DNA of 64,000 bases from an uncultured bacterium (GCA_964573295.1 CAZNJE010000021.1:3570-67569); one strand, 5' to 3'; counted from the stretch's first letter, positions 8,504 through 59,987 are shown. Notes: generated by a model from the letters alone, not told the origin. Program-made: numbers and translations.

Positions 8504-8598
8504 CCGGGATGATGACCGGGATGATGACCGGGGCGATGACCGGGATGATGACCGGGGCGATGACCGGGGCGATGACCGGGGCGATGACCGGGATGATG
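8504..8598. repeat. 12-nt tandem repeat array (ccggg[g]atgatga / ccggggcgatga), about 8 copies, intergenic
   Basis: Direct inspection: ccgggatgatga ccgggatgatga ccggggcgatga ccgggatgatga ccggggcgatga x3 ccgggatgatg. Confidence 0.85.
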
Positions 8599-8633
8599 TG
8601 TCTTGGTCGTGGACATCTACGAAGGAGGTTTCA

Positions 8634-9152
8634 ATGAGAGGCTCCCAGGGGGTGGTGATCTGTCTGTTGGCCGCAGCCATGCTGCTCATTGCTGGCTCGG
8701 CTGAAGCACAAAGCAAGTCGCGGTTCGGCGTGGGCTATGCGGTCACGCACTATGACCCCACCTTCGACATCACATTCCACATGCCCAAGTTCGTGTTTCA
8801 GTCCGACGTGTTTACCGCCGGGGGCGGATTCCAGCTGCACTCGGGGGAGGATCTCACGAACTTCATCCTGGAATTCGATTTCGCGGCCAAGGCGATCAAG
8901 CACCGGTCGGGGAGCATCAACTTCGGCGGCCAGATGCACCTCATGACCGACGGCATCGTCAGCCAGAATGCCCAGGGCAAGATCGAGAAGGACGCCATCT
9001 TCGGCTTCGGAGGCTTCGCGGAAGGCATGGTCGAGGTGGCCCCGAATATGAGCGTGAGCGCGCGAATCTACCCATTCCAGATCGCGAGCGGAGGCGACGC
9101 CACCCGCTTCGCCCTGCTGAGCGCCGGCGCCACGATCTCCTACCTCTTCTAG
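8634..9152 (+). CDS. Small outer-membrane beta-barrel protein (OmpW/OmpX-like, 8-strand type)
   Basis: RBS GGAGG. Sec signal peptide (LLAAAMLLIAGSAEA-QS). Alternating amphipathic beta-strand pattern. C-terminal aromatic residue (…ISYLF) typical of OMP C-termini. Confidence 0.55.
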   Translation: MRGSQGVVICLLAAAMLLIAGSAEAQSKSRFGVGYAVTHYDPTFDITFHMPKFVFQSDVFTAGGGFQLHSGEDLTNFILEFDFAAKAIKHRSGSINFGGQMHLMTDGIVSQNAQGKIEKDAIFGFGGFAEGMVEVAPNMSVSARIYPFQIASGGDATRFALLSAGATISYLF

Positions 9153-9380
9153 GTCACCCTCTCCTGGGAGGGTCGCGGGGAGACCGGACGCCGGTCTCCC
9201 CCGCCATCGCAGCTTCTTGTGCGCACGCCGCCGTTGCCAGATCCACCGCTGCGTGGCGGCAAGGGTTGCCTTTCGAACTGACTCTCCCCCAACCACTTGG
9301 ACGTTTCGACTACCGAGAGGGCTCGCGGCGGGCGCGCTACCCAGAGGCTCTCGGCGAGCGCTGGAGGGGAAGGCCGAATT

Positions 9381-9428
9381 CTCGACCGAACCCTCGACCG
9401 AACCCTCGACCGGACCCTCAACCGGATC
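9381..9428. repeat. 12-nt tandem repeat (ctcgaccgaacc), about 3.5 copies, intergenic
   Basis: ctcgaccgaaccctcgaccgaaccctcgaccggaccctcaaccgg. Confidence 0.8.
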
Positions 9429-9545
9429 GTCTGCCTTGCAGGAAGCGCCCAACCCACCGTTGAAACCCACCGCCAAGAGCGCTATGATGGGACGGTTCTA
9501 TCTTGAAATCGACTTCATCCCCGTTTTTGGGGACAAGGGGGGGGC

Positions 9546-12275: not shown

Positions 12276-12397
12276 GACGCCCACGTAAACGCCCGCGCCC
12301 ACGCCCGCGTAAGCGCCTGCGCCTGCGCCTGCGCCCGCGCCCGCGTGAGCGCCGGCGTCCGCGCAGGCGTCCGTGCCGGTGAATCTGCAAGAAGGGA

Positions 12398-13475: not shown

Positions 13476-13630
13476 CCACTCCTCCTTCGGTTCGTCTTGC
13501 TCTCTTGCTCTCTTGCTCTGACGCCGCATGATAACGCACCTGAAATCCATCTACCACTCCCGGCGCCTTTCGGGTCCGGCAATGCTCCGCTCTTCCCTTG
13601 GTCCCAGCGCCGGAGTAGGCTGGTGCCGTC

Positions 13631-14809
13631 ATGACGAACCCAATGCCACAACCTCAACAAAGTCGCGCTTTCGGACGTGTGCTCGTTCTCGGGGCAACCG
13701 GTATGATCGGAGCCCACATCGTGCGCGCCTGTCTCGAGCGCGGCTGGGCTACGCGCGCCCTCGTCCGCGCCACGAGCGACCGGCGCAACTTGGATGCTCT
13801 TCCGGTCCAGATTGCCGAGGGGGATCTGCGCGATCCCGCCTCGATCGCTCGCGCCCTGGAGAACTGCGATCTCTTGCTGCACGCTGCGGCCCCGTATCCG
13901 CGAAGGCATTTCGGCAAAGCCGCGCTGATCGCCTCGGCCCGCGAATCGATGCAGAACCTGCTCGCCACCTGGGCGGCTCATTGCCGCGTTCTGGGACGCG
14001 GGCGAATGGTCTACGTGAGTAGCGTGACGACCCTGAATCCGGTGCGCGACAGTGCGCCCTACTTCGAGCTCAAGCAGATGCTGGAAACGCTGGCGATGGA
14101 AGCCGCAGATCCAGGTAGGACCGGTGCAAGGGGCGGCACCGAGGTGGGCACCAAGGCCCGTGCCAAAGCCAGCTCCGAGGCCGGCTCGGAGGCCCGCTCC
14201 GAGGCCCGCTCCGAGGCCCGCTCCGAGCCCCGCTCCGAGGCCCGCTCCGAGCCCCGCTCCGAGGCCCGCTCGGAGGCCCGTGCCAAGGCCGGCTCCGAGG
14301 CCGGCAAAGACATCGTGGTCGTCAACCCCACATTCTGCATCGACGAGTTCGATACGAATCTGACGACCGCTCAACTCCTCCTGCCCCTCGCGCGGCGTCA
14401 GTTGCCGGCCTACCTGCCCGGCCGGCTCAACGCGGTGGCCACGCGCGACGTGGGCGTAGGCGTGGCGCTCGCCGCCGAGCACGGACATTCGGGATCACGC
14501 TATGTCTTGGGGGGCGAGAACCTCACCAGCGGTGCGCTCCTCGAGCGCTGCGCACGCGTGGCCGGGGTACCCGCACCCCGGCGAACGATGCCGATCCCGC
14601 TGGCCGAGGCTCTGAGCATGGTGACCGAGGTGGTTGCCTATGCAACGGGAACGCGGCCGCTCTTTCCCATGACCGGCATCCGCATGATCAAGCACGGGCA
14701 GGCGGTCGACATCCGCACCACACGCGAAGAGCTCGGCTACGAGCCGAGCTCCCTTGATGAGGCCATCGGCCGGGCCTACGACTGGTACCGGCGCGAGGGG
14801 TGCTTGTAG
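13631..14809 (+). CDS. NAD(P)-dependent epimerase/dehydratase (extended SDR) with an in-frame (SEAR)n low-complexity insertion
   Basis: Rossmann motif (LVLGATGMIGAHIVRA). SDR-e fold throughout. Residues about 175-225 are an approximately 50-aa insert (AKASSEAGSEARSEARSEARSEPRSEARSEPRSEARSEARAKAGSEAG) encoded by a 12-nt tandem repeat array at 14155-14305. Confidence 0.75.
   Translation: MTNPMPQPQQSRAFGRVLVLGATGMIGAHIVRACLERGWATRALVRATSDRRNLDALPVQIAEGDLRDPASIARALENCDLLLHAAAPYPRRHFGKAALIASARESMQNLLATWAAHCRVLGRGRMVYVSSVTTLNPVRDSAPYFELKQMLETLAMEAADPGRTGARGGTEVGTKARAKASSEAGSEARSEARSEARSEPRSEARSEPRSEARSEARAKAGSEAGKDIVVVNPTFCIDEFDTNLTTAQLLLPLARRQLPAYLPGRLNAVATRDVGVGVALAAEHGHSGSRYVLGGENLTSGALLERCARVAGVPAPRRTMPIPLAEALSMVTEVVAYATGTRPLFPMTGIRMIKHGQAVDIRTTREELGYEPSSLDEAIGRAYDWYRREGCL
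14155..14305. repeat. 12-nt tandem repeat (ggcccgctccga, about 10 copies) inside the epimerase CDS, in frame
   Basis: ggcccgctccgaggcccgctccgaggcccgctccgagccccgctccgaggcccgctccgagccccgctccgaggcccgctcggag. Confidence 0.85.
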
Positions 14810-15719: not shown

Positions 15720-15790
15720 TGCACAATGAGCCAACCTGGCGAGATGGGGCTGCCCAGTAGGATGGGGCTGCCCAGTAGGATGGGACTGTC
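15720..15790. repeat. 18-nt tandem repeat (gatggggctgcccagtag, about 3 copies) downstream of the C25 peptidase gene
   Basis: ggatggggctgcccagtaggatggggctgcccagtaggatgggactgtccgatgcgatgg. Confidence 0.7.
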
Positions 15791-18616: not shown

Positions 18617-19113
18617 GACACACTCCCTGGCGGTGCGGGCCTGAAGATCCAGACGAGACCGCCGATGTTGGTCGTCCATGTCCTATGCTGTCCGTCAGCT
18701 ACCAGCCCGGCGCGATCGCGCTGACGTAGTCGCCCTCATGCGGTCGTCCTCATGTGGTCGCCCTGACGTAATCGCGCCAGCTTGGACTCATCAATTATAG
18801 CACAGATCCACGGTGCGCCGGGCTCCCGAAAAGTCTAGTTCATTAGTGGATGGGCGTGTCGGGAATGTATACGCCTGAGGAGGACGGCACGATGTCACAT
18901 GGAGATTCGATCTCGCATCTTGCTAGATTACAAAAGGATACGGAACCATCGCCCAAGATGTTTCATTGTCGCAACACGATCAGGACGCAGCCCCGGCAAG
19001 CTTCGGCAAACACCGCGAGGATAGGTCAGCGCAGGTCTGCTGTGCCTCGACGGGTGACACAGGAAGAGCTCGTCTTCAATCCCCTCTTCACCCCCCCGTC
19101 TTCAACCCCGTCT

Positions 19114-20826
19114 TCAACCCCGCGCCCTGTCCAGACCCCGGTAGCTGATCGCCTCACTCACATGCCCTTCACGCACCGACTCGCTTCCGGCCAGGTCGGC
19201 GATGGTGCGCGCAATCCGCTGAATGCGATGAAATGCGCGCGGGCTCAGTCGCAAGCGCGTCATCGCGATGCGTAGGAGCCCGAGAGAGCGTTCCTCGAGC
19301 TTGCAGAACCGATGCAGGTCGCCCACCCGCATGTCGGCATTGCGGGTGACGGCACCCGAGGCCCATATGGTCGTAGCCGCCTCGGCTTGGAGCAATCGCT
19401 CCTCGGCTTGGGGCCATCGCTCCTCGGCCTGGGGGGATCGTGCCTCGAGTCGGGGCGATGCGGCGGCCCCGGCCGAGGCCGCGGCCGCCCCTACTCGGGC
19501 TGAGTTCGGCAACAGCGCCGTACCAGCTACGCCGAAGCGGGCCTGCTGCCGCTTCCAGGCCGCGAGCACCCGTCGGCGAACCACGTTGCTTGGCTCGGAC
19601 GGCGGTAGCTGGGCCAGCTGCCGGAAATCCACGTTGGTCATCTCCACCTGCAGATCGATGCGATCCATGAGTGGGCCCGAAACCCGGCTCAGGTAGCGCT
19701 GGACCATGGCCTCGGTGCACCGGCACCCGCCCCGCGGATCCAGCCGGTGGCCGCATGGGCAAGGATTCATGGCGGCCACGAGCTGGAAGCGGCTCGGGAA
19801 CCGGGCCTGAAAACCGCTGCGGATCACCGTCACCACCCCGTTCTCCAGGGGTTGCCGCAAGGACTCGAGGGGACGCCGCCGAAACTCGGCCAACTCATCC
19901 AGGAAGAGTACGCCGCGATGAGCCAGGCTCACCTCACCCGGCTGTGGGGGCCGGCCGCCCCCAATAAGACCCAAATCGCTAACGGTATGGTGTGGTGCCC
20001 GGAACGGCCGGTGCAAGACCAGTCCCTGCCCGCTTCCTCGCAGCCCTGCCACGCTGTGGATCTGCGTCACCTCGAGCTGCTCATTCCGCGAAAGGGGCGG
20101 CAGGATCGTGGGCAGACGCTCGGCCAGCATCGACTTGCCGGTTCCGGGCGACCCCAGGAAGAGGAGGTTGTGACCGCCGGCCGCGGCGATTTCCAGAGCG
20201 CGCCGGGCCACGATCTGCCCGCGTACATCGGCGAGATCCACGGTGGCCTCTTCGGCCGGTCCGAACGGGCCGTGATCGGGAGGAGTCACCGGACGCAGCC
20301 GATCCGGTCCCTGCTCCAGGAGGTCCCAGATCTCACGAAGCGTCGCGGCCTCTGCCACCGTCACGCCCGAAGCCTCGGCGGCCTCACCTCCGTTGCCGAC
20401 CGGCACGACGAAGGTCCGCGACCGTGCCCCTCGCCTGCGCTCACGCAGGGCCATCGACAGCGCCCCGCGAATCGGCTGCAGCCGGCCGTCGAGACCGAGC
20501 TCGCCCGCCCAGGAGAAGGTGTTCAGCGCTGCTTCGGGAGCCTGCCCGGAGGCGACCAGGATCCCAATCGCGATCGGCAGATCGAAGGACCCACCGGCCT
20601 TCGGCAAGGTCGCCGGCGCCAGGTTGACCGTGATCTTCTTGTCCGGAAACCGGAATCCCTGGTTTCGCAAGGCCGCCATGATTCGCTCGCGGCTTTCCCG
20701 CACCACCGGATCGGGCAGCCCCACCAGAACCAGCCGCGGGAACGATGTCGCGACCTGATCGACCTCTACCCGGACCGGCAGGGCCTCGATTCCAACCAGG
20801 GCATAGGTGTGGACGGTGGCCAGCAT
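19114..20826 (-). CDS. yifB: YifB/ComM-family Mg-chelatase-like AAA+ ATPase, with a low-complexity insertion near the C-terminus
   Basis: N-terminal Lon-like domain (MLATVHTYALVGIEALPVRVEVD). Walker A (LLFLGSPGTGKSMLAERL). Walker B (GVLFLDELAEF). Approximately 60-aa Ala/Glu/Gln-rich insert (…SPQAEERWPQAEERLLQAEA…) encoded by short repeats. Confidence 0.85.
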   Translation of the reverse strand: MLATVHTYALVGIEALPVRVEVDQVATSFPRLVLVGLPDPVVRESRERIMAALRNQGFRFPDKKITVNLAPATLPKAGGSFDLPIAIGILVASGQAPEAALNTFSWAGELGLDGRLQPIRGALSMALRERRRGARSRTFVVPVGNGGEAAEASGVTVAEAATLREIWDLLEQGPDRLRPVTPPDHGPFGPAEEATVDLADVRGQIVARRALEIAAAGGHNLLFLGSPGTGKSMLAERLPTILPPLSRNEQLEVTQIHSVAGLRGSGQGLVLHRPFRAPHHTVSDLGLIGGGRPPQPGEVSLAHRGVLFLDELAEFRRRPLESLRQPLENGVVTVIRSGFQARFPSRFQLVAAMNPCPCGHRLDPRGGCRCTEAMVQRYLSRVSGPLMDRIDLQVEMTNVDFRQLAQLPPSEPSNVVRRRVLAAWKRQQARFGVAGTALLPNSARVGAAAASAGAAASPRLEARSPQAEERWPQAEERLLQAEAATTIWASGAVTRNADMRVGDLHRFCKLEERSLGLLRIAMTRLRLSPRAFHRIQRIARTIADLAGSESVREGHVSEAISYRGLDRARG

Positions 20827-21385: not shown

Positions 21386-21399
21386 GACAGACTCCTCTA

Positions 21400-21760
21400 A
21401 GATCGGGCCTTCGCCGTCTGGCCGGGCTCCTCCGAGATCGGGGCCCCCTCGGTCCGGTCGGGCTCCTCCGAGATCGGGGACCCCCTCGGTCTGGTCGGAC
21501 TGGCGCGTCGGTGCGTCCCTTGGCCGTATACGGCTCCTGAGCATCCGCGGCAAGCGCAACCTGAAGGGCTGAGGTCATGGGAAGGCTGGGAAGGTTGGCC
21601 GGGTTGGCAGGGCTCGCCGGGTTGGCAGGTTCGAGAGGTCTCCAGAGGCTCGCGAGGCACGCGAGGTACCAAGAGGTTCGAAAGGTCTCAACGGGGCTCG
21701 AGGCGACCCAACCGGGTTCGAGGGGTCTTGAGGGGACTTGAACATGGACGCGGTTTGGGG
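21400..21760. repeat. Complex direct-repeat region (39-nt duplications; repeated aggttcga[ag]aggtctc and gccgggttggcagg units) upstream of the SMR gene
   Basis: gggccccctcggtccggtcgggctcctccgagatcgggg duplicated. ggctgggaaggttggccgggttggcagggctcgccgggttggcaggttcgagaggtctc...aggttcgaaaggtctc...ggttcgaggggtcttgagggg. Confidence 0.6.
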
Positions 21761-22374: not shown

Positions 22375-22499
22375 CTAGCTAGCGAGCTAGCGAGCGTGCG
22401 TGCGTGCCTGCGTGCCTGCGTGCGTGTGAGAGCGCAAGAGAGAGAGAGAGCAGCACGACAGGAATGCGCGGCAGGACTGCGTGACGAAGGGATGCGTGG

Positions 22500-40977: not shown

Positions 40978-41049
40978 TATGCACCTTGTGCACCTTGTGC
41001 ACCTCGTGCAGCTCGTGCACCTCATGCAGCTCGTGCACCTCATGCACGG
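40978..41049. repeat. 12-nt tandem repeat (gtgcacctcgtg/gtgcagctcgtg, about 6 copies) immediately upstream of the Ldh_2 gene start
   Basis: tgcaccttgtgcaccttgtgcacctcgtgcagctcgtgcacctcatgcagctcgtgcacctcatgcacgg. Confidence 0.85.
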
Positions 41050-47225: not shown

Positions 47226-48281
47226 TCATTCGATTCCGGCCGGCTTCTCGCGGATGAAGTTGTCGTTGCGCAGATCATGGAGGGCTTCCTCGATCTCCGC
47301 GCGCGTGTTCATGACGAAGGGGCCGTAGCGCGCGATGGGCTCGTTCAGCGGCTTGCCGGCCATCAGCAGCAGGCGCGCCCCTTCGCCGCCGGCCCGAATC
47401 CACACCTGATCGCCTTCGCCAAAAACCACGAGGTGGGGCGACCCAATCGGCGCGATGCTGTCACCTGGCAAACCACCACGTGTAGCCGGCACTGAACCTC
47501 CCCGGTCCGGTCCCGTCTCTTCGCCGCTGCCTTCTCCTCCGCCGTGTCCCGTCTCGCCTCCTCTCTGCCTCTCTCCACCGCTCCCCTTTGTCCCATCGCT
47601 CCCCTTTGTCCCATCGCTCGCCTTCGCCCCATCGCTCGCCTTCGCTCCCGGTCCGAACACGACGGTTCCGCGGAAGAGATAGGCGCAGGCGTTCTTCTCC
47701 GCCGACAACGGCAGGACCACCGAGGCCTCCGGCGCAAGCTCGAGGTCGAAGTAGGTGGGATCGGCCGCCATCTCGGTCACCGCGCCCGGGGTATCGCCGA
47801 AGGAACCTGCGATGATTCGCAAGGCAACGCCTTCTGCCGGCGAAAGCTGCGCCATCTCCTCGGCCCGGATGTCACGGTAACGGGGGGTGCTCATCTTCTC
47901 CTTGGCCGGGAGATTGACCCACAGCTGAAAGCCCACGAGCCCACCGGGGGTTTCCTGGGGCATCTCCTCGTGCATGATCCCGCTGCCGGCGGTCATCCAC
48001 TGCACCTGATCAGCGCCGATCGTGCCCTCGTTGCCGAGGCTGTCACGGTGGCGGACCTCGCCGCTCAAGACGTAGGTCACCGTCTCTATCCCGCGATGCG
48101 GGTGCCAGGGGAAACCGCGGATGTGATCGGCCGGATCCGTCGAGCTGAAGTCGTCAAACAGCAGGAAGGGATCCACCGCGTCCAACTCCCTCGTCGCGAT
48201 GCTGCGCTTCAGCTTGACGCCCGCTCCTTCGAGCACCGGCTGCGGCGTGACCAAACGGGTTACGGGTCTCGGCGTAGCCAT
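47226..48281 (-). CDS. Pirin-family (bicupin) protein with a Lys/Ser/Gly-rich internal insertion
   Basis: Start MATPRPV with RBS GGGAGG. Pirin N-domain motifs (HPHRGIETVTYVLSGEVRHRDSLGN...GADQVQWMTAGSGIMHEEMP). Insert KASDGAKASDGTKGSDGTKGSGGERQRGGETGHGGGEGSGEETG encoded by 15-nt repeats. Confidence 0.75.
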   Translation of the reverse strand: MATPRPVTRLVTPQPVLEGAGVKLKRSIATRELDAVDPFLLFDDFSSTDPADHIRGFPWHPHRGIETVTYVLSGEVRHRDSLGNEGTIGADQVQWMTAGSGIMHEEMPQETPGGLVGFQLWVNLPAKEKMSTPRYRDIRAEEMAQLSPAEGVALRIIAGSFGDTPGAVTEMAADPTYFDLELAPEASVVLPLSAEKNACAYLFRGTVVFGPGAKASDGAKASDGTKGSDGTKGSGGERQRGGETGHGGGEGSGEETGPDRGGSVPATRGGLPGDSIAPIGSPHLVVFGEGDQVWIRAGGEGARLLLMAGKPLNEPIARYGPFVMNTRAEIEEALHDLRNDNFIREKPAGIE

Positions 48282-50770: not shown

Positions 50771-50905
50771 GAGTTCGATCCCAGAGTCCGATCCCACAGT
50801 TCGATCCCAGAGTCCGATCCCAGAGTCCGATTCCAGAGTCCGACCCCAGAGTCCGACCCCAGAGTCCGACCCCAGAGTCCGACCCCAGAGTCCGATTCCA
50901 AGAAG
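50771..50905. repeat. 12-nt tandem repeat array (agagtccgaccc / agagtccgatcc), about 11 copies, intergenic
   Basis: gatcccagagtccgatcccacagttcgatcccagagtccgatcccagagtccgattccagagtccgaccccagagtccgaccccagagtccgaccccagagtccgaccccagagtccgattcc. Confidence 0.9.
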
Positions 50906-50999: not shown

Positions 51000-51521
51000 A
51001 TGAGGCTGACAATAGCGAGCACGTTGGCAAGGACAAAGGCGACTTCGCACCGAGATGGATCGAACGGCACGCTGGGCGGGCTGGCCGCAGCGTTGATGCT
51101 CGGACTGGTGCTACTCCTCACGGCCGGCTGCGGGGGGGGCGACGGTGATGGCGGGAGCGCGAACGGCGACAGGGGCGCGGCGGCCGGTGCCGGCGGGGTC
51201 GAGACCGAGGCGGCGGCGGGCGGTGCCGGCGGGGCCGAGACCGAGGCGGCGGCGGGCGGTGCCGGCGGGGCCGAGACTGAGGCGGCGGCGGGCGGCGCCG
51301 GCGGGGTCGAGACCGTCCAGCTCGCCATCGGGGGCATGTACTGCCAGGGATGCGCCGACGGTATCCAGGCGGCCCTCGCCAAGGCTCCTGGCGTCCGGAG
51401 TTGTTCGCTGAGCTTCGCCGACAGCGTCGCCGTGGTCTCGCTCGAACCGGGCAGCTTGACGGCCGAGGAGCTGATCGGAATCGTCGAAGACGTGGGCTAC
51501 AAGGCGCAGGTGAAGCCGTAG
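51000..51521 (+). CDS. Heavy-metal-associated (HMA, CopZ-like) domain lipoprotein with 3x 13-aa Gly/Ala/Glu repeat linker
   Basis: RBS GGAGGGA. Lipobox LLLTAGC. Repeats AAGGAGG(V/A)ETE x3 (39-nt DNA repeats). C-terminal HMA fold with metal-binding MxCxxC (GGMYCQGCADGIQAAL). Confidence 0.65.
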   Translation: MRLTIASTLARTKATSHRDGSNGTLGGLAAALMLGLVLLLTAGCGGGDGDGGSANGDRGAAAGAGGVETEAAAGGAGGAETEAAAGGAGGAETEAAAGGAGGVETVQLAIGGMYCQGCADGIQAALAKAPGVRSCSLSFADSVAVVSLEPGSLTAEELIGIVEDVGYKAQVKP

Positions 51522-52743: not shown

Positions 52744-52809
52744 GACGATCAGTCCCCGTGGCCCGGTCCCGGCGGGGGACGAACACAAGTCTCCGGGAGA
52801 CGGCGGCCC

Positions 52810-52900
52810 CGGCGGCGACGTGGGCGGCGGATCGGGCGGCGGTGCCCCCGGCGGTGGCGTGGGCGGCGGGTCGGGCGGCGGTGCCCCCGGCGGCGGAACG
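52810..52900. repeat. approximately 45-nt direct repeat (2 copies; gcgg-rich) in the asd-lysC intergenic leader
   Basis: gcggcgacgtgggcggcggatcgggcggcggtgcccccggcgg / tggcgtgggcggcgggtcgggcggcggtgcccccggcggcgg. Confidence 0.75.
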
Positions 52901-53954: not shown

Positions 53955-54007
53955 GGTAGTACCATTATATAGTCGCCTCCCAATCGCAAGAGGCCAAGTT
54001 GATGACG

Positions 54008-54075
54008 GAGAAGTCCGGGCGGAGAAGTCCGGGAGGCGAAGTCCGGGAGGCGAAGTCTAGGCGGCGAAGTCCTGG
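54008..54075. repeat. 15-nt tandem repeat (gaagtccgggaggc[g]), about 5 copies, in the asd/fetA divergent promoter region
   Basis: gagaagtccgggcggagaagtccgggaggcgaagtccgggaggcgaagtctaggcggcgaagtcctgg. Confidence 0.85.
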
Positions 54076-54151: not shown

Positions 54152-54838
54152 ATGGCGGCATTGCGCTTGGATCGGCTTGGCTTCATGAACCGCGGTCCGA
54201 TCGACCTCACGATCGAACCCGGTGAGTGCGTTGCCCTGGCCGGCCCCTCCGGTTCGGGCAAGACGCTCATGTTGCGGGCCATCGCGGATCTGGATCCCCA
54301 CGAAGGCCGGGTGTACCTGGGCGAGGACGAAGCCCAGCAGCTCCCGGCACCCCTCTGGCGCCACCGGGTCGGTCTGCTGCCGGCCGAAAGCCAGTGGTGG
54401 CATGATCGGGTCGGCGATCACTTCGCCCCGGTGCCCGGTGAGACCACGACGACCGGGCAGGCCGGACAGGCGGAGCGGGCCGGACAGCCCGGGCAGGCCG
54501 GACAGGCCCTTGGTGGCCGGAACTGGCTGGAGGAGCTGGGATTCACCGATGGGGTCATGGACTGGGACACGAGCCGGCTCTCGACGGGCGAGAAACAACG
54601 TCTCGCCCTGGTGCGGCTGCTGCGCAATCGCCCGCACGCGCTGCTGCTCGATGAGCCCACCGCCAGCCTGGACCCCGAGAACGTCGACCGCGTCGAGCGA
54701 CTGATCACCGAATTGCGTCACGCCACGCGAATGCCGGTCTTGTGGGTGACCCACGACGCCGCGCAGATCGCCCGAATCGCCGATCGCGGCTATCGGATCG
54801 ACGGCCAGGGACGCCTCGCCGAACAGGTCCACCCATGA
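54152..54838 (+). CDS. ABC transporter ATP-binding protein, FetA/YbbL-like, with a Gln/Ala/Gly repeat insertion
   Basis: Walker A (LAGPSGSGKTLMLRAI). Signature (LSTGEKQRLALVRLL). Walker B (LLLDEPTASLD). Insert GETTTTGQAGQAERAGQPGQAGQALGG. ATGA overlap with the next gene. Confidence 0.7.
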   Translation: MAALRLDRLGFMNRGPIDLTIEPGECVALAGPSGSGKTLMLRAIADLDPHEGRVYLGEDEAQQLPAPLWRHRVGLLPAESQWWHDRVGDHFAPVPGETTTTGQAGQAERAGQPGQAGQALGGRNWLEELGFTDGVMDWDTSRLSTGEKQRLALVRLLRNRPHALLLDEPTASLDPENVDRVERLITELRHATRMPVLWVTHDAAQIARIADRGYRIDGQGRLAEQVHP

Positions 54839-55641
54839 ACGTGATCGCTCTCAGCCCGTGGGATCTCCTCCTGGCCGCCGGGCTCGTGCTCCTGCTGGCC
54901 GTCCTTGCCACGCGGCTTCGGCTGGGCGTTAGCCGCCAACTCGTGGTCAACGGCATTCGCATGACGATCCAGCTCTTGCTGATCGGTCTCGTGCTCGACG
55001 TCATCTTCGGACACACGAAGCTGCACTGGATCGGCTTGATGGCCCTGATCATGCTCGCCGTCGCCGGCCGGGAGGTCATGGCCCGCCAGAGACGCCGATT
55101 CGCGGGCTGGTGGGGCTATGGCATGGGCGCGCTGTCGATGTTCGTCTCATCGTTCGCCGTTGCCATCCTGTCACTGACCGTCATCGTCGCGCCCGAGCCC
55201 TGGTATCAACCCCAATACGCGATCCCGCTGCTCGGCATGCTCTTGGGCAACACGATGAACGGCATCGCCCTTTCGCTCGATCGCTTGACCCAGTCCACCT
55301 GGCAGCAGCGGGCCGCCATCGAAAGCCGCCTCATGCTCGGCCAGACCCGCCAGGAGGCGATGGGCGGCATCATGCGCGACAGCATGCGCTCGGCGCTGAC
55401 GCCGACGATCAATGCCATGGCCGCCGCCGGGATCGTAAGCCTCCCGGGCATGATGACCGGACAGATCCTGGCGGGCGCCTCGCCCATCGAGGCGGTCAAG
55501 TATCAGATTCTGATCATGTTCTTGATCGCATGCGGGGCGGGCTTCGGATCGATGGCCGCGATCTGGATCGCCGGCAAGCGCCTGTTTGATTCACGCCATC
55601 GCCTGCGCCTCGATCACCTGCAGCCGCCGCGGGGCGGATGA
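54835..55641 (+). CDS. FetB/YbbM-like (UPF0014) ABC-type permease
   Basis: Polytopic membrane protein translationally coupled to the FetA-like ATPase. The family assignment rests on architecture and context. Confidence 0.6.
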   Translation: MNVIALSPWDLLLAAGLVLLLAVLATRLRLGVSRQLVVNGIRMTIQLLLIGLVLDVIFGHTKLHWIGLMALIMLAVAGREVMARQRRRFAGWWGYGMGALSMFVSSFAVAILSLTVIVAPEPWYQPQYAIPLLGMLLGNTMNGIALSLDRLTQSTWQQRAAIESRLMLGQTRQEAMGGIMRDSMRSALTPTINAMAAAGIVSLPGMMTGQILAGASPIEAVKYQILIMFLIACGAGFGSMAAIWIAGKRLFDSRHRLRLDHLQPPRGG

Positions 55642-55985
55642 CGCCGCCGGACGGATGACGCCGCCGGGCGGATGACGCCGCGGGATGGGACGTTTCGTAG
55701 CGGGTGACACTGTGCTTCACAGGCGGTCCTACGGGGCAACATCCGCATCAGGCTCGCCACAAACTCAAGTTTGCGGCATCGGGCAGCTCGAAAGGCTTCC
55801 AATATCCCTTTTCCAGCCACTTCCCCCTCCAGGGACGGATCGAGGTCAAAGCGGGGGTTTCGGGACGCAGGTTCGTATGACCGCGACCCAGGGGCCGTCT
55901 CAAGTACACCTCGATCCTCATCACGGTCGATGGAGGCGAGATCGCTTTCCCGTTCGAAGGCGATCTGGCCTACACGGGCAGCAAT

Positions 55986-56825: not shown

Positions 56826-58199
56826 CTATTCGGGTGGCTCGCCCGGCGGTGGCACGGGTGAGACGTCCTCGATCACCTTGCGCTTCCATGAGCCGGTGGA
56901 GAACCAGATGGCCGCGGCGATGGCCGTGACCGTGTTCGAGATGAACATCCCCCACCAGAGCCCCGATGGGCCCAACCCCAGCGTGATCGCCAGCAGATAG
57001 GCGGCCGGAATGCGCAGTCCCCACAGCCGAATGACATTCAGCACCATGGCCGGCACCGTGTGGCCCGATCCCTGGAATGAGGCCAGCAGCACCATCACGA
57101 AGCCGAAGGCGAATACGGAATACGACGTGATGCGGAACAGGTCCCGGCCATAGCGGATCACCTCGGGATCGTCGACGAAAATCTTCGAGATCGAATCGCC
57201 GAAAAAGAACATGAGCGTCGTCACCGGCAGCAGGATGGCGCCAACCATCAGGGCGGAGGTCATCACCGACCGTGAGGCGCGCTCGGTATCGTCGGCCCCC
57301 AGGCACTGTCCGACGGCAGTGGCGTTCGCCTGCGAGAACCCCATCATCGGCACCAGTGCCATGTGAATGATCCGGTGACCGATACCGAAGGCGGCCGTCA
57401 CGGCCGAGCCGAAGGTGTTGACGATCCCGATCAAGAGCGTGAACCCGAGCGAGGTCGTGGCCTGGCCGAGGGAGAGAGGCAGCCCGATCCGCAGGATCTT
57501 GAGCGCGATGCGATTGTCCCACACGATATCACTTCGGTATAGACGGAAGCCGCGATCCCCGCGGAAGAGCCGGATCAATCCCAGTGTCGACGCCAGGGCT
57601 CGCGCAATGACGGTCGCGATGGCCGCCCCGGCCACACCCAGCGCCGGGAAAGGCCCCCAGCCGAAAATGAGCAGTGGATCGAGGACCACGTTCAGCAACA
57701 TCGAGATGCCGTTGACCTGCATTGGGCCCACCGTGTCACCCATTCCGGTGTAGATTCCCTGATACACGAAGAAGGCGAACATGAAGGGCACGCCGATCAG
57801 GATCCAACGCATGTAGAGGAGGGTTTGCTCGAAGGCGTCGGGCGGGGTCTGAAGCAAGCGTACGATCGGGGCCGAGAAGAGCAGTCCCAGGATCGCAAGC
57901 CCTACGCCGACGAAGGAAAGCAGGAGAAGCGTCTGGCCCCCAGCGCGGCGCATGTCGGCAAACCGCTTGGCGCCCCGGTACTGCGAGACGAGCGTCGTTC
58001 CCCCCATGCCCAAGCCCATCGCGATCGAGAAGCCGATGAAGAGCACGTTGATCGTGACCGTCGGGGCGACGATGGCCGTCTTCCCCAGCTTGCCCAACCA
58101 GAAGGCATCGACGAGGTTGTACAGTGTTTGAAACAGGAAAGAAAGCATGACCGGCCAAGCCACGGCGAAGAGATTCCGGGCCAGGGGTCCGGTAGTCAT
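56826..58199 (-). CDS. MATE-family multidrug/oligosaccharidyl-lipid efflux transporter
   Basis: N-terminus MTTGPLARNLFAVAWPVMLSFLFQTLYNLVDAFWLGKLG is the canonical MATE opening. 12 TM helices. Start taken at internal ATG 58199. Confidence 0.8.
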   Translation of the reverse strand: MTTGPLARNLFAVAWPVMLSFLFQTLYNLVDAFWLGKLGKTAIVAPTVTINVLFIGFSIAMGLGMGGTTLVSQYRGAKRFADMRRAGGQTLLLLSFVGVGLAILGLLFSAPIVRLLQTPPDAFEQTLLYMRWILIGVPFMFAFFVYQGIYTGMGDTVGPMQVNGISMLLNVVLDPLLIFGWGPFPALGVAGAAIATVIARALASTLGLIRLFRGDRGFRLYRSDIVWDNRIALKILRIGLPLSLGQATTSLGFTLLIGIVNTFGSAVTAAFGIGHRIIHMALVPMMGFSQANATAVGQCLGADDTERASRSVMTSALMVGAILLPVTTLMFFFGDSISKIFVDDPEVIRYGRDLFRITSYSVFAFGFVMVLLASFQGSGHTVPAMVLNVIRLWGLRIPAAYLLAITLGLGPSGLWWGMFISNTVTAIAAAIWFSTGSWKRKVIEDVSPVPPPGEPPE

Positions 58200-58785
58200 G
58201 TCACGGCCGGCGGCCGCAGTCGGCCTCACGCGTTCCTCCTTCCTCTCGACGACAAGCGCGCGAAGAGCCGACTCTAGCACAGCCGCGGCGGATGCCGCCA
58301 CGGGGTGGCATCGAAGCGCATTGGACAAAAACAGCCGGTATATCGCAGCCGGCCTGGGCAACTGTGCCAACTACCCCAGCAAAGCCTGCGTTAGCGCGGT
58401 TGCGCGGTTGCGCGGTTGCGACTGCCGTTTCGCAGTCGCGAAGGCCCAATAGCTGTGAGCAAGTCGCCTGGGCATCGTTCGCCCCTGGGGGGGCGGCTCA
58501 TTTGACCTCGTAAAGGCCGATCTCCAGTCCACGCATCATGAACTCCATGAGCGCCTTCCAGGAAGGGGCATCGAGCACGATTACCGACTCGTCGCGTAAC
58601 CCCTCGTTGATGTGATGACGGACCGGGACACTGGTGTGCCTGCTAACCGGAAACCACTGTCTTCCTATCCCAGATCTGGCAACCTGCCGACTCTCGCCTC
58701 GTCCCTGACGTCCGCAGGATTGGCGAATGCGGTCTCAACTCACCACCGAAGCACTCGTCCCACCTCGAAATCGACTTTTTGCGGA

Positions 58786-59922
58786 CTACGGGGGAGTGTG
58801 CCCCCACCCATCAGCGAGCGCGGCGTCGCAAAGAACGTCCCGGATCTTCTCCAGCATGTCGCGGCTATGCGAGAAGGGGATCTCACCACGATGCTGCAAC
58901 TGACCCACGACGATGCCAGGATGAACATCAAGCGAGGCTGCAAACGCCCGGATCTTCTTCTTCGAATAGAGCGGTCGTACGCAGGCAATGAAGTTCTGCA
59001 GTTTTGCCTCTGGCACTAGAAAGTCAGCAGTCTCTCGATCTGCGCGCTGCTCGAATTCGGGTCGATGTTGCGTGCCTGCAGAGCCCTCGCCGATCAAATC
59101 AACATCGACGAGCGGCTGGTCACTCGATGTCACATCCTTGTGGACTATGTGCATCAGGTCGTGGAGCAGCGTATGCCAAAAACCATCTACTCGATCGTAG
59201 CGTAGGGACAGAGCAATCACTGGGGACTTCGCATCAAGCCAGAAGGCAGCCCCGTCGATCTTGCTTCCCGAAAGAGCCTCAACAAGAACCAGACGAATAC
59301 CTGCCTCTGCGAGCACCCTCGGGACATGGCGAGCCTCTTCTTTGTCCTTCAGAAGACCGCGGAGGTGAGCCAGACCGTCGCGCAGCCTACGGTCGGTGTA
59401 GGGCACAGCGTGTACCGCCTTCGCGAGAGCCCGCGCACGGATGAGCCAGGCGCACTGCGCGATAGTAGTCGCCTCGTAAGACGTGGACTTACGCGCAGCA
59501 TGGGGAAAGATAGATGGTGTGTCGTCCAGGCTCTCGATCTCAAAGAATCTCTTCACCCGGTCCTCGAGAACGTCGATGTTGGGCGAGTGCTCAATCCAAC
59601 GACGCTTGATCATCTCTTTGATAGGGGCCATGCCGTACAGCTTCGCGCGACGGGCAATCATGTCGTCTCGTGGCTTCACCTGCGAAAGGCGGTACGCGCT
59701 CTCAAGATTCATCCAGACGGTCGGGCCGGTGTCGAAGGCCTCCCCAAGTGCCCGCGCCGTTGCGGGCGTGATGGTCCGTCTCCCGGTGATGATCTCATTC
59801 ACAAGGCGGAGAGAGGTGCCGAGCACCTCCGCCAGGACTTCCTGAGTCCAGCCACGCTCCTCCAGCTCCTCGCGGATGAAGTCGCCGGGCGGGAAGACCT
59901 CGACAGGCTTTCTCTGGCTCAT
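58786..59922 (-). CDS. HigA-like antitoxin fused to an ImmA/IrrE-family (COG2856) metallopeptidase domain (XRE-HTH + peptidase, 378 aa)
   Basis: N-terminal HigA/XRE HTH (GWTQEVLAEVLGTSLRLVNEIITGRRTITPATARALGEAF). C-terminal region with HExxH-like LLHDLMHIVH and conserved downstream Glu, typical of ImmA/IrrE. Immediately downstream of the higB-like toxin gene. Confidence 0.7.
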   Translation of the reverse strand: MSQRKPVEVFPPGDFIREELEERGWTQEVLAEVLGTSLRLVNEIITGRRTITPATARALGEAFDTGPTVWMNLESAYRLSQVKPRDDMIARRAKLYGMAPIKEMIKRRWIEHSPNIDVLEDRVKRFFEIESLDDTPSIFPHAARKSTSYEATTIAQCAWLIRARALAKAVHAVPYTDRRLRDGLAHLRGLLKDKEEARHVPRVLAEAGIRLVLVEALSGSKIDGAAFWLDAKSPVIALSLRYDRVDGFWHTLLHDLMHIVHKDVTSSDQPLVDVDLIGEGSAGTQHRPEFEQRADRETADFLVPEAKLQNFIACVRPLYSKKKIRAFAASLDVHPGIVVGQLQHRGEIPFSHSRDMLEKIRDVLCDAALADGWGHTPP

Positions 59923-59934
59923 GGCATTCCCTCC

Positions 59935-59987
59935 TGGCTGGTGGTAGTCCTAGTGGTAGTCTTAGTGGTAGTCTTAGTGGTAGTCCT
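59935..59987. repeat. 12-nt tandem repeat (tagtggtagtcy), about 4 copies, between the higB and higA-like genes
   Basis: ggtggtagtcctagtggtagtcttagtggtagtcttagtggtagtcctcgatgg. Confidence 0.85.

What the first reader, a model, noticed from the sequence alone, without database searches (positions are those of the whole stretch)
8504..59987. Genome-wide family of short (mostly 12-nt) tandem repeat arrays, intergenic and as in-frame insertions in conserved proteins
At least 30 microsatellite-like arrays occur in this 64-kb window. Many have a 12-nt unit or a multiple of 3. Intergenic examples: 8504-8598 (ccggggcgatga), 9381-9428, 40978-41049 (gtgcacctcgtg), 50771-50905 (agagtccgaccc, about 11 copies), 54008-54075 (15-nt), 56660-56742 (tccagtcggggg), 59935-59987 (tagtggtagtct). 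The same kind of array is embedded in frame inside otherwise well-conserved enzymes, producing low-complexity loops. Examples are (SEAR)n in an SDR epimerase (14155-14305), a poly-D/A/E insert of about 80 aa in the tricorn protease (36420-36660), and inserts in both RND pumps, YifB, LolE-like permease, FetA-like ATPase, GNAT (46455-46550), pirin (47560-47650), the HMA lipoprotein and the FeS-protein tail (5088-5160). Unit sequences differ between arrays. This points to a slippage/expansion-prone genome rather than a single mobile element. Arrays in promoters and leaders (asd-lysC, Ldh_2, SDR, MFP) could mediate phase-variable expression.
Basis: seen in the sequence. Interest (0 to 1): 0.65.

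Follow-up and report, generated by a model that had tools for sequence, protein, structure and literature searches.

The report
Bacterial genome crowded with short repeats
An uncultured bacterium related to Candidatus Eisenbacteria carries short head-to-tail DNA repeats at about 15-30 times the density of other GC-rich bacterial DNA, filling almost a quarter of its DNA between genes and adding floppy loops to ordinary enzymes; the repeats are real and change fast, but they are an extreme case of a known process, not a new kind of element.

Summary
Tandem Repeats Finder (score >=50) finds 49 separate arrays covering 5.4% of the 64 kb; composition-matched shuffles give 0-1. Units are 4-42 nt and unrelated to each other, so there is no dispersed family.

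Arrays scoring >=70 occur at 0.58/kb, against 0.00-0.04/kb in E. coli, Ralstonia and Thermus DNA run through the same pipeline.

They are not assembly artefacts. A single-run assembly matches 7.5 kb of the window exactly, arrays included. Relatives at 91-94% nucleotide identity carry arrays at the same sites with different copy numbers, and some arrays exist in only one genome.

All 16 arrays clearly inside genes have periods divisible by 3; only 13 of 29 non-coding arrays do. Two inserts modelled with AlphaFold are disordered loops on confident cores. Host genes are under purifying selection.

Best reading: local tandem duplication and slippage that is unusually productive in this lineage, filtered by selection.

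"Mostly 12-nt" is wrong, and three quoted unit lengths are off. Phase variation is untested and cannot be the general explanation. "Genome-wide" is shown only for about 64 kb plus the matching stretches of relatives.

This is an extreme new member of a known kind (bacterial minisatellites).

The parts
3578..3609 (.). 9 nt x 3.6; straddles the stop codon (3586) of the sigma-54 response-regulator gene; mostly non-coding
3950..4066 (.). 14 nt (7-nt sub-period) x 6.9; intergenic
5080..5158 (+). 24 nt x 2.9; in frame, C-terminal tail of the 4Fe-4S protein, (TTAEQETG)n
5786..5845 (+). 18 nt x 3.3; in frame, Ala/Pro/Thr stretch after the signal-like N-terminus of the nitroreductase-family protein
7474..7503 (+). 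15 nt x 2.0; inside the CAAX-protease CDS (weak, two copies)
7876..7986 (.). 30 nt (15) x 3.8; starts at the CAAX-protease stop codon and fills the spacer to the next ORF
8503..8598 (.). 12 nt x 8.0 (ACCGGGRYGATG); intergenic, ends at the start of ORF 8598-9152
9310..9361 (.). 26 nt x 2.0; intergenic
9374..9424 (.). 12 nt x 3.7; intergenic, upstream of the GreA-fusion gene
12277..12379 (.). 6/12/18 nt compound array; begins 2 nt after the GreA-fusion stop codon, and the unit carries TAA
13170..13250 (.). 14/28 nt x 2-3; intergenic
13495..13519 (.). 8 nt x 3.1; intergenic; the relative L014 has 16 nt (2 units) fewer
14168..14302 (+). 12 nt x 11.2; in frame, (SEAR)n in the SDR epimerase, inside a disordered loop (residues 166-222); the relative has 60 nt (5 units) fewer
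15743..15788 (.). 18 nt x 2.6; intergenic; the relative L014 has 36 nt (2 units) more
18716..18775 (.). 14 nt x 2.6-4.3; intergenic, upstream of the C25 peptidase gene
19071..19122 (.). about 13/26 nt x 2-4; straddles the YifB stop codon
19378..19447 (-). 21 nt x 2.6-3.3; in frame, inside the C-terminal domain of the YifB/Mg-chelatase-like ATPase
21392..21498 (.). 36 nt x 2.3; in the ORF extension upstream of the likely SMR-family start (MNAYVF...); probably non-coding
22390..22426 (.). 4 nt (GCGT) x 9.2; intergenic, upstream of thyX
25736..25782 (-). 12 nt x 3.9; in frame, (PAAA)-like stretch in RND pump 1
27696..27739 (-). 18 nt x 2.4; inside a hydrophobic helix of RND pump 2 (weak, possibly chance)
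31977..32040 (-). 18 nt x 3.6; in frame, (DASGSS)n in the tether after the lipobox of the membrane-fusion protein
32225..32285 (.). 18 nt x 3.4; upstream of the membrane-fusion protein signal peptide; probably non-coding
32296..32353 (.). 18 nt x 3.2; same upstream region
32574..32613 (.). 10 nt x 4.0; intergenic, between nadA and the membrane-fusion protein gene
34983..35024 (-). 21 nt x 2.0; in the tricorn-protease CDS near the C-terminus (weak)
36417..36608 (-). 6/12/36-nt compound array; in frame, Asp/Ala/Glu insert (about residues 578-660) of the tricorn protease; relatives L001, L002 and L003 also have arrays here, and L002 carries 30+3+3 nt more
40980..41047 (.). 9 nt x 7.6; divergent spacer between Ldh_2 and the ABC ATPase; the relative has one unit fewer
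45437..45477 (.). 14 nt x 2.9; first of five different arrays filling the 541-nt divergent spacer between the SDR and GNAT genes
45479..45581 (.). 30 nt x 3.4; same spacer; 16-nt indel against the relative
45681..45742 (.). 18 nt x 3.4; same spacer; the relative has one unit more
45759..45822 (.). 13 nt x 3.2; same spacer; the window has 26 nt (2 units) more
45871..45935 (.). about 19/33 nt x 2-3.6; same spacer; the relative has 47 nt more
46457..46546 (+). 24 nt x 3.8; in frame, (TTSAAASE)n in the GNAT acetyltransferase; the window has 48 nt (2 units) more than the relative
47575..47649 (-). 18 nt x 3.8; in frame, (GAKASD)n, part of the 58-residue disordered loop (47460-47633) of pirin; the loop is 6 residues shorter in contig B's pirin (P0196) and lacks 108 nt in L017
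48325..48372 (.). 16 nt x 3.0; upstream of the true pirin start; L017 has 32 nt (2 units) fewer
50771..50900 (.). 13 nt x 10; non-coding, upstream of the HMA lipoprotein gene; the relative has 27 nt fewer; the single-run contig ends inside it, so the copy number is uncertain
51177..51315 (+). 36 nt x 3.9; in frame, (AAAGGAGGAETE)n linker between the lipobox and the HMA domain; the window has one unit more than the relative
52807..52895 (-). 39 nt x 2.3; Pro-rich, between the asd stop codon and the conserved start of aspartokinase; N-terminal extension or spacer, undecided
54006..54072 (.). 14 nt x 4.8; divergent spacer between asd and fetA; the relative has 40 nt more
54453..54508 (+). 9/18 nt x 3-6; in frame, (GQA/GQP)n in the FetA-like ABC ATPase; the window has 45 nt (5 x 9) more than the relative
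55625..55681 (.). 17 nt x 3.4; straddles the FetB stop codon
56658..56740 (.). 12 nt x 6.9 (TCCAGTCGGGGG); convergent spacer between the Big_1 protein gene and MatE; the window has 32 nt more than the relative
58394..58420 (.). 8 nt x 3.4; intergenic, at the edge of the 2.56-kb segment that the relative lacks
59941..59987 (.). 12 nt x 3.9; intergenic, upstream of the HTH gene
60653..60695 (.). 14 nt x 3.1; intergenic
60900..60994 (.). 9/36 nt x 2.5-10.9; straddles the EamA stop codon
61471..61572 (-). 21/42 nt x 2.4-4.9; in frame, Pro/Ala/Gly loop between the two EamA domains
62476..62516 (-). 9 nt x 3.8-4.4; in frame, (PGT/PGS)n linker before the FlgD_ig domain

Best explanation
The arrays are ordinary minisatellites (variable-number tandem repeats), made locally and independently at each site and present at a density that is extreme for a bacterium.

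Proposed sequence of events:
1. A short stretch of unique sequence (8-40 nt) is duplicated in tandem. The likely route is slipped-strand mispairing or template switching at a few bases of microhomology during replication or repair.
2. Once two copies exist, further slippage or unequal exchange adds and removes whole units. Arrays grow to about 11 copies, then decay by point mutation.
3. In this lineage (window genome and relatives at 91-94% nucleotide identity; the nearest named proteins are Candidatus Eisenbacteria), expansion and/or retention is far more productive than in other GC-rich bacteria.
4. Selection decides where arrays survive. They accumulate almost freely between genes. Inside genes only frame-preserving arrays survive, and only in places that tolerate extra disordered peptide: surface loops, lipoprotein tethers, inter-domain linkers and termini.

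Shown here: that the arrays are real, their density, that units are unrelated, copy-number change and array births between relatives, the frame rule, disordered-loop placement in two proteins, and purifying selection on the host genes.

Inferred: slippage as the molecular route. Why the rate or retention is high in this lineage is unknown.
For: Density
- 49 arrays against 0-1 in shuffles.
- Arrays per kb at score >=70: window 0.58 and close relative 0.60, against E. coli 0.00, Ralstonia megaplasmid 0.04 and Thermus pTT27 0.02.
- Arrays with >=3 copies per kb: 0.47 and 0.41 against 0 in the comparators.
- More distant relatives are intermediate, 0.05-0.27, apart from one GC-54% relative (L004) with none.
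- Published figures: 70-102 arrays/Mb in 'repeat-rich' B. pseudomallei (PMC1853098), and general depletion of short repeats in bacteria (PMC12699852).

Not artefacts
- Logan single-run contigs from SRR7048224 are 100% identical to window 47129-50862 and 41755-45547, arrays included.
- Independent MAG contigs carry arrays at the same sites.

Local origin
- There are no dispersed repeat families.

Dynamics (window against contig CAZZIF010000024.1, 25.4 kb, 93.65% identity)
- 31 of 41 indels >=3 nt lie in or next to arrays.
- 21 of 33 indels >=6 nt are periodic with their flank.
- Clean births from single-copy sequence: 35-nt, 12-nt, 10-nt, 9-nt and 8-nt duplications, several with 2-3 nt of flanking microhomology.
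- A second contig and a third lineage show the same pattern.
- The pirin loop grows stepwise, from about 5-10 residues in typical pirins to 17, 31, 35, 65 and 71. Another Eisenbacteria pirin expanded independently at the same loop.

Selection filter
- 16 of 16 coding arrays have periods divisible by 3, against 13 of 29 non-coding arrays (Fisher p = 1.8e-4).
- Array density is 3.6/kb in non-coding DNA against 0.36/kb in coding DNA. Arrays make up 22.6% of non-coding bases.
- In the AlphaFold models the cores have pLDDT >90 and the inserts pLDDT about 30-50, lying between regular secondary-structure elements.
- dN/dS is 0.03-0.27 in 18 genes.
Against: - No whole genome was available. Neither genome-wide extent nor the state of replication and repair genes could be checked.
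- At the lax TRF threshold (score >=30) the window (1.20/kb) is not above Thermus (1.52/kb) or Ralstonia (0.96/kb). The excess is therefore in expanded, well-preserved arrays, not in two-copy duplications, many of which are near the noise level in GC-rich DNA. This fits faster expansion or slower loss as well as it fits more frequent births.
- Non-coding arrays show a possible mild surplus of periods divisible by 3 (16 of 32 if the three probably non-coding upstream arrays are added, p = 0.06). Periods 12 and 18 are commoner than a flat distribution would give. Neither is explained.
- Copy numbers of the longest arrays (130-190 nt) may be mis-assembled from short reads; two single-run contigs break inside arrays.
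- The comparisons are between lineages 6-9% apart, not within a population, so rates per generation are unknown.
Confidence: 0.8

Rival explanations
1. Assembly artefact: the arrays are produced by mis-assembly or co-assembly of metagenomic short reads (collapsed, expanded or chimeric repeats).
For: The window comes from a metagenome-assembled contig. Arrays of 100-190 nt approach read and k-mer length. Two single-run contigs terminate inside arrays.
Against: Single-run Logan contigs reproduce 7.5 kb exactly, including at least five complete score->=50 arrays and parts of two more. Two other assemblies from different projects have arrays at the same sites, with related units. An artefact would not obey the reading frame (16 of 16 coding arrays divisible by 3), nor leave ORFs intact under purifying selection.
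Confidence: 0.03
2. Contingency loci: the arrays are maintained by selection as hypermutable switches. They would turn genes on and off, or tune them, by changing promoter or leader spacing or the reading frame (phase variation).
For: Arrays lie in divergent promoter regions (40980, 45437-45935, 50771, 54006). Their copy number differs between close relatives. Several of the associated genes encode envelope or transport proteins.
Against: Arrays occur in 20 of 27 intergenic regions of every orientation, including across stop codons and in a convergent spacer. No coding array has a frame-shifting period. Many arrays are degenerate: 15 of 49 have <85% matches. Arrays sit in housekeeping enzymes (asd-lysC region, nadA neighbourhood, epimerase, pirin), not mainly in surface or virulence genes. 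No expression data exist.
Confidence: 0.1
3. Mobile or templated element: the arrays are copies or footprints of a repeat-carrying element (REP/BIME, MITE, MIRU-like or STRR-like units, degenerate CRISPR arrays) that spreads through the genome.
For: High density in intergenic DNA and at gene ends resembles REP/BIME and MIRU placement (established knowledge of those elements).
Against: Every array has its own unit. The repeat search found only local tandem families, with no dispersed family and no significant inverted-repeat termini. There is no repeat-spacer architecture. Units arise from the local single-copy sequence seen in the relative. Rfam finds nothing.
Confidence: 0.02
4. Base composition plus relaxed selection: high G+C alone, or weak selection in a small population, lets ordinary slippage products pile up, with no lineage-specific change in mutation.
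For: At score >=30, GC-rich comparators have as many hits as the window. Arrays are GC-richer than the window (72% against 65%), and units are enriched in G or C runs of >=4 (17 observed against 8.5 expected, p = 0.004). The one low-GC relative (L004, 54% GC) has no arrays. dN/dS of about 0.15 is not especially low.
Against: Ralstonia (69% GC) and Thermus (70% GC) DNA have 15-30 times fewer arrays at score >=70, and none with >=3 copies. Relatives with equal or higher GC (L008 72%, L009 68%) have only 0.05/kb. Genes are clearly under purifying selection.
Confidence: 0.2

Closest known systems
Bacterial VNTR/minisatellite loci (e.g. Burkholderia pseudomallei, Mycobacterium tuberculosis, Xanthomonas MLVA loci)
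   Same: Head-to-tail arrays with units of about 6-40 nt. They are mostly intergenic. Coding arrays come in multiples of three. Copy number differs between related genomes. The presumed origin is slipped-strand mispairing (PMC1853098).
   Different: Density is 766 arrays/Mb here, against 70-102/Mb reported for B. pseudomallei, although the counting criteria differ. In my own pipeline the window has 15-30 times more score->=70 arrays than GC-rich comparators. In B. pseudomallei 36% of arrays are partly duplicated elsewhere in the genome; here none is. Arrays make up about 23% of intergenic DNA and sit inside many housekeeping enzymes.
Low-complexity inserts in conserved proteins of Plasmodium falciparum (own knowledge: Pizzi and Frontali 2001; DePristo et al. 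2006)
   Same: Lineage-wide, in-frame, fast-evolving repetitive inserts form disordered surface loops in otherwise conserved enzymes. Their amino-acid make-up follows the genome's base composition (Asn/Lys in the AT-rich parasite; Ala/Gly/Ser/Asp/Glu/Pro/Arg here).
   Different: This is a bacterium with 65% GC. The repeats are still recognisable as DNA-level minisatellites with 9-42-nt units, not homopolymeric runs. The same process also fills the intergenic DNA.
Simple-sequence contingency loci of Haemophilus, Neisseria and Campylobacter (phase variation)
   Same: Hypermutable tandem repeats near or in genes; copy number changes by slippage.
   Different: Those repeats have units of 1-7 nt and act by shifting the frame or the promoter spacing of specific surface genes. 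Here units are mostly 9-42 nt, coding arrays never shift the frame, and placement is indiscriminate.
Duplication-mutator phenotypes of flap-endonuclease defects (yeast rad27/FEN1; E. coli polA 5'-nuclease mutants) and stabilisation of tandem repeats by single-strand exonucleases (own knowledge: Tishkoff 1997; Nagata 2002; Feschenko and Lovett 2003)
   Same: They produce new tandem duplications of about 5-100 nt bounded by a few bases of microhomology, like the births seen between the window and its relative.
   Different: Those are laboratory mutants. No repair-gene defect has been shown, or could be tested, for this lineage. This is a mechanistic lead only.
Dispersed short repeat families (cyanobacterial STRR heptamers, mycobacterial MIRU, enterobacterial REP/BIME)
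   Same: Short repeats concentrated between genes and at operon junctions.
   Different: Those are families with one conserved unit found at many loci. Here each array has a private unit derived from local sequence.

Membership tests
Bacterial minisatellites / VNTR loci | Head-to-tail copies of a unit, far beyond chance | tested here: met
   49 arrays at TRF score >=50 against 0-1 in 20 dinucleotide shuffles.
Bacterial minisatellites / VNTR loci | Unit length in the minisatellite range (about 10-100 nt) | tested here: met
   43 of 49 arrays have a best period >=10 nt (range 4-42); six have 4, 8 or 9 nt.
Bacterial minisatellites / VNTR loci | Copy number varies between related genomes | tested here: met
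   Unit-sized indels at more than 20 arrays between the window and relatives at 91-94% identity. Variation within a single population was not tested.
Bacterial minisatellites / VNTR loci | Coding arrays preserve the reading frame | tested here: met
   16 of 16 coding arrays have periods divisible by 3, against 13 of 29 non-coding arrays; Fisher p = 1.8e-4.
Phase-variation contingency loci | Repeat placed so that unit gain or loss shifts the reading frame or changes the promoter -35/-10 spacing | tested here: not met
   No array with a period not divisible by 3 lies in a confirmed CDS. Promoter positions are unknown for this phylum, so promoter spacing could not be tested.
Phase-variation contingency loci | Reversible high-frequency switching of expression | not testable with these tools
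   Needs culture, reporter or deep population data.
Dispersed repeat elements (REP/BIME, MITE, MIRU, STRR) | One conserved unit present at many separate loci | tested here: not met
   Only local tandem families were found; the cross-locus matches are 60-78% chance-level hits.
Dispersed repeat elements (REP/BIME, MITE, MIRU, STRR) | Terminal inverted repeats or target-site duplications | tested here: not met
   No inverted-repeat pairs flank the arrays. Births in relatives are simple duplications of local sequence.
CRISPR arrays | Identical repeats separated by unique spacers of similar length | tested here: not met
   Copies are contiguous, head to tail, with no spacers.
Known structured RNA families | Match to an Rfam covariance model | tested here: not met
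   No hit at gathering thresholds anywhere in the window.

The most novel reading that the evidence does not exclude
A clade of Eisenbacteria-like bacteria has a heritable 'minisatellite mutator' state. The cause would be a lineage-specific change in replication or repair: for example lost or altered flap processing, loss of single-strand exonucleases, a changed helicase, or poor handling of G/C-run structures. Such a change would raise tandem duplication and expansion of 8-40-nt units by an order of magnitude or more. The result would be a eukaryote-like repeat load (5% of the DNA, about 23% of intergenic DNA) and Plasmodium-style inflation of protein loops. This would be the first bacterial lineage in which this mutational regime shapes the whole proteome.
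Probability: 0.3. Interest if true: 0.65.

Novelty: new member of a known kind. Interest (0 to 1): 0.5.

Why it matters
Bacterial genomes are usually described as poor in tandem repeats. Here is a lineage in which repeats dominate intergenic DNA and account for most indels between close relatives.

It offers three things:
- a natural system for asking what normally suppresses minisatellite birth and expansion in bacteria;
- a bacterial counterpart to the low-complexity inserts of Plasmodium proteins;
- a practical warning for annotating and binning such genomes, because ORFs are extended through upstream arrays, short-read contigs break inside arrays, and protein lengths are inflated.

The pirin loop series (about 5-10, 17, 31, 35, 65 and 71 residues) is a clean example of a permissive loop growing stepwise by tandem duplication.

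No new mechanism is demonstrated, so the value lies in the extremity and in what the lineage makes testable.

Tried and rejected
1. Shared motif or dispersed family. A repeat search with 12-nt seeds over the whole window found only local tandem families. Rejected.
2. Known RNA families. No Rfam hit at gathering thresholds over the whole window, nor with permissive thresholds on 50431-50780.
3. Hairpin potential as a common property of arrays. Folding z-scores against non-array window segments are mixed: 13 arrays below -2, 6 above +2, mean -0.7. There is no general structural requirement.
4. G/C-run (quadruplex-like) content. Runs >=4 are modestly enriched, 17 observed against 8.5 expected, p = 0.004. 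I keep this as a weak lead, not an explanation.
5. A simple test of whether each inserted segment equals its immediate neighbour. It under-called duplications (10 of 41), because indels are often several or partial units. I replaced it with a best-shift periodicity test against a null.
6. The 13-nt array read as a frame-shifting coding repeat in the HMA gene. Rejected: the true lipoprotein starts downstream, near 51000, as shown by the lipobox and the 136-aa and 161-aa orthologues.
7. Exact-protein look-ups of nadA and of P0001 found nothing. A look-up of accession NC_003903 failed.
8. Literature. No paper in the held library links Eisenbacteria with tandem repeats. SRR7048224 is not mentioned anywhere.
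9. dN/dS for the DAO gene was mis-framed in my script and is ignored.
10. A TRF threshold of 30 proved uninformative in GC-rich DNA, where comparators score as high as the window.

Full report
WHAT IS THERE

The window has 65% G+C, and cumulative GC skew falls steadily along its whole length. Tandem Repeats Finder at score >=50 reports 75 rows, which merge into 49 separate arrays. These cover 3,484 nt (5.4%) and lie between 3578 and 62516. Twenty dinucleotide-preserving shuffles of the window give 0 or 1 array each. Arrays are spread evenly, 3-8 per 8-kb block.

Best periods run from 4 to 42 nt: 18 nt in ten arrays, 14 nt in five, and 12, 24 and 36 nt in four each. Thirty arrays have >=3 copies; the largest are 12 nt x 11, 13 nt x 10 and 12 nt x 8. 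Preservation varies: 9 arrays have >=95% matches, 25 have 85-94% and 15 have <85%.

A whole-window repeat search found only local tandem families. No unit recurs at a second locus, and no inverted repeats flank the arrays. Rfam finds nothing.

However, 'mostly 12-nt' is not correct, and three units were mis-measured: 40980 is 9 nt, 50771 is 13 nt and 54006 is 14 nt.

WHOSE GENOME

The genes include the tricorn protease, two RND pumps with their membrane-fusion protein, YifB, thyX, nadA, pirin, two Band_7 genes, an HMA lipoprotein, lysC-asd, fetAB, MatE, a C25 peptidase, and proteins with FlgD_ig domains.

The asd protein is 100% identical to one from a 72-kb NCBI contig. The best named relatives (63-66% identity) are Candidatus Eisenbacteria MAGs, genomes assembled from metagenome data.

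Related DNA was obtained as follows:
- Contig CAZZIF010000024.1 (26.7 kb, held as L013 + L002) and CAZZIF010000374.1 (L014), both from MAG GCA_964654025.1. They are about 94% identical to the window and syntenic.
- A JGI contig, L017 (90.7% over the full alignment, 92.6-92.9% in the BLAST segments).
- More distant syntenic relatives: L001 (about 77%), L003 (about 74%) and L007 (68% asd identity).
- Other Eisenbacteria-like loci L004, L005, L008 and L009.

HOW UNUSUAL IS THE DENSITY

I ran the same pipeline on 50-kb samples of E. coli K-12, the Ralstonia GMI1000 megaplasmid (69% GC) and Thermus pTT27 (70% GC).

| Sequence | Arrays/kb, score >=70 | Arrays/kb, score >=50 and >=3 copies |
|---|---|---|
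| Window | 0.58 | 0.47 |
| Contig B (close relative) | 0.60 | 0.41 |
| L007 | 0.27 | 0.14 |
| L005 | 0.24 | 0.24 |
| L003 | 0.14 | 0.00 |
| L001 | 0.12 | 0.12 |
| L008 | 0.05 | 0.11 |
| L009 | 0.05 | 0.00 |
| L004 (54% GC) | 0.00 | 0.00 |
| E. coli K-12 | 0.00 | 0.00 |
| Ralstonia megaplasmid | 0.04 | 0.00 |
| Thermus pTT27 | 0.02 | 0.00 |

Array bases make up 5.4% of the window, against 0.1% (E. coli) and 0.9% (Ralstonia and Thermus).

At the lax score of 30 the window (1.20/kb) is not above Thermus (1.52) or Ralstonia (0.96). The excess therefore lies in expanded, well-preserved arrays, not in marginal two-copy matches.

Published counts, made with other criteria, are 70-102 arrays/Mb for 'repeat-rich' B. 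pseudomallei, 37 for Y. pestis and 13 for B. anthracis (PMC1853098). The window has 766/Mb. A survey of 117,861 genomes reports that bacteria are on average depleted in short tandem repeats (PMC12699852). I found no paper in the held library that links Eisenbacteria with tandem repeats.

NOT AN ARTEFACT

Two contigs assembled from the single run SRR7048224 (Logan) are 100% identical to window 47129-50862 and 41755-45547. They include the pirin 18-nt array, the 16-nt, 14-nt, 10-nt and 9-nt arrays, and the first parts of the 13-nt and 30-nt arrays, where the contigs end. The existence of the arrays is therefore secure. Only the copy numbers of the longest arrays are open to doubt.

Independent MAGs from other projects have arrays at the same positions.

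TURNOVER BETWEEN RELATIVES

Window 32612-58386 aligns to contig B over 25,352 columns at 93.65% identity. B has 21 arrays (0.79/kb) and the matching window region has 18.

- Of 41 indels >=3 nt (two of them are runs of N in B), 31 lie within 15 nt of an array. Arrays plus that padding cover 7.8% of the region.
- Of 33 indels >=6 nt, 21 match their own flank at a fixed shift better than 95% of random positions.
- Examples where the window has more: 13-nt array +27 nt, HMA 36-nt array +36, FetA +45 (5 x 9), GNAT +48 (2 x 24), pirin +18, and the 9-nt array +9.
- Examples where B has more: 54006 array +40, and +66, +65, +38 and +35 nt at sites where the window has one copy or less.
- The alignments show clean births from unique sequence in both lineages: a 35-nt duplication in B, and 12-, 10- and 9-nt duplications in the window. 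Several have 2-3 nt of microhomology at the junction.
- The second MAG contig differs from the window by 16 nt (2 x 8), 60 nt (5 x 12, the SEAR array) and 36 nt (2 x 18). It also differs by a 61-nt array present only in the relative and a 63-nt window-only segment.
- L017 lacks 108 nt of the pirin insert and two of the three 16-nt units upstream of pirin.
- One convergent spacer (46943-47225) has been replaced entirely. B carries a 13-nt x 8 array where the window has unrelated sequence.

WHERE ARRAYS ARE TOLERATED

I corrected gene starts using orthologues, lipoboxes and Pfam envelopes. With those starts, 12.6% of the window is non-coding.

- Non-coding DNA holds 29 arrays (3.6/kb), and arrays are 22.6% of its bases. 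Coding DNA has 0.36 arrays/kb, 3.0% of its bases.
- Twenty of the 27 intergenic regions >=75 nt contain at least one array, whatever their orientation. Several arrays straddle stop codons.
- All 16 arrays clearly inside coding sequence have periods divisible by 3, against 13 of 29 non-coding arrays (Fisher p = 1.8e-4).
- Four N-terminal arrays of uncertain status are also multiples of 3, and three of them are probably non-coding. Adding those three gives 16 of 32 non-coding arrays divisible by 3 (p = 0.06 against one third).
- The two arrays that looked like frame-breaking repeats inside ORFs (13 nt, 16 nt) lie upstream of the true starts of the HMA lipoprotein and pirin.

Coding arrays encode stretches rich in Ala, Ser, Gly, Asp, Glu, Pro, Thr and Arg, in tails, lipoprotein tethers, inter-domain linkers and loops.

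The two AlphaFold models give the following.
- Epimerase: mean pLDDT 86 with the core above 90. Residues 166-222, including most of the (SEAR)n stretch (residues 180-224), score 35-51. They lie between the helix that carries the catalytic YxxxK motif and the next strand. Most orthologues are 328-350 aa against 392 here and lack the insert; some Eisenbacteria orthologues carry different inserts in other loops.
- Pirin: core above 90. Residues 217-274 score about 30 with no secondary structure, between two strands of the C-terminal cupin.

The pirin alignment shows this loop at about 5-10 residues in typical pirins. It is 17 residues in L007, 31 and 35 in closer relatives, 65 in contig B and 71 in the window. 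Another Eisenbacteria MAG has an independent expansion at the same loop.

Between the window and B, dN/dS is 0.03-0.27 in 18 genes, so the host genes are functional (the DAO value is a framing error of mine).

MECHANISM

The data fit local tandem duplication followed by slippage-type expansion and contraction, then decay by substitution, filtered by selection on reading frame and on structural tolerance.

Array units are somewhat GC-richer than the window (72% against 65%) and enriched in G or C runs >=4 (17 observed against 8.5 expected, p = 0.004). This is a weak hint that such tracts favour expansion. Hairpin potential is not a common feature.

Why this clade has such a load is unknown. Possible causes are a lineage-specific change in flap or single-strand processing, a helicase change, or simply slower loss. 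It cannot be settled without whole genomes.

Selection for phase variation could apply at individual promoter arrays. It does not explain the indiscriminate placement or the absence of frame-shifting coding arrays.

VERDICT

The '12-nt family' label, the genome-wide claim and the phase-variation idea are respectively wrong, only partly shown, and untested.

This is an extreme, apparently undescribed instance of bacterial minisatellites, in an uncultured lineage. It is worth following up with whole-genome repeat and repair-gene surveys.

Noticed in passing
window 50540-50645: A non-coding block of about 105 nt between the Band_7 gene start and the HMA lipoprotein gene. It stays about 88% identical to the distant relative L007 while its flanks diverge. 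It contains a long imperfect palindrome (GCGCGTCGCCGGATACACTCCTGTACCGCGACGCGCG) and a second one (ACCTGC...GCAGGT). The consensus fold has 3 compensatory pairs among only 3 sequences. There is no Rfam match. It could be an operator for a metal-responsive regulator or a structured leader.
   Followed up: partly
window 58387-60945: A 2.56-kb segment (about 60% GC) carrying an XRE-type HTH gene (58786-59922) and three arrays. It is absent from the 94%-identical relative, whose contig joins the MatE gene directly to the end of the EamA gene. This is a recent insertion or deletion.
   Followed up: partly
window 55904 / L013 2527-3275: The relative has 749 nt extra inside the Big_1-like gene (449 aa against 218 aa in the window). 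The segment is not periodic with its flank at short range. It may be a gain or loss of whole Ig-like domains.
   Followed up: no
window 46943-47225 / L002 1183-1347: The convergent spacer between pirin and GNAT is unalignable between the two 94%-identical genomes. The relative has a 13-nt x 8.4 array where the window has unrelated sequence.
   Followed up: partly
window 37268-37351 (-): ARAGORN calls an 84-nt tRNA-Asp inside the tricorn protease coding sequence. Rfam gives no tRNA hit there, so it is almost certainly a false positive.
   Followed up: yes
window 9546-12275 (+): A 909-aa protein whose last ~170 residues are GreA/GreB N- and C-terminal domains. They are fused to a region of about 740 residues with no Pfam match.
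   Followed up: no
window 22500-24095 (+): The thyX ORF is 531 aa and has two Thy1-domain stretches, about twice the usual length.
   Followed up: no
window 29083-29386 (-), RND pump 2 residues ~490-590: A low-complexity insert of about 100 residues (Ser/Pro/Ala/Glu/Gly) splits the AcrB-family match. TRF detects only a faint 6-nt repeat there. It looks like an old array that has decayed beyond detection.
   Followed up: partly
window, all arrays: Periods of 12 and 18 nt are over-represented (14 of 49 best periods), including among non-coding arrays. I have no explanation. It could partly reflect arrays that are or were translated, or TRF's choice of period.
   Followed up: partly
window 20908-20979: Two perfect 26-nt copies 46 nt apart, in the spacer upstream of yifB. 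This is a young two-copy duplication below the TRF score threshold.
   Followed up: no
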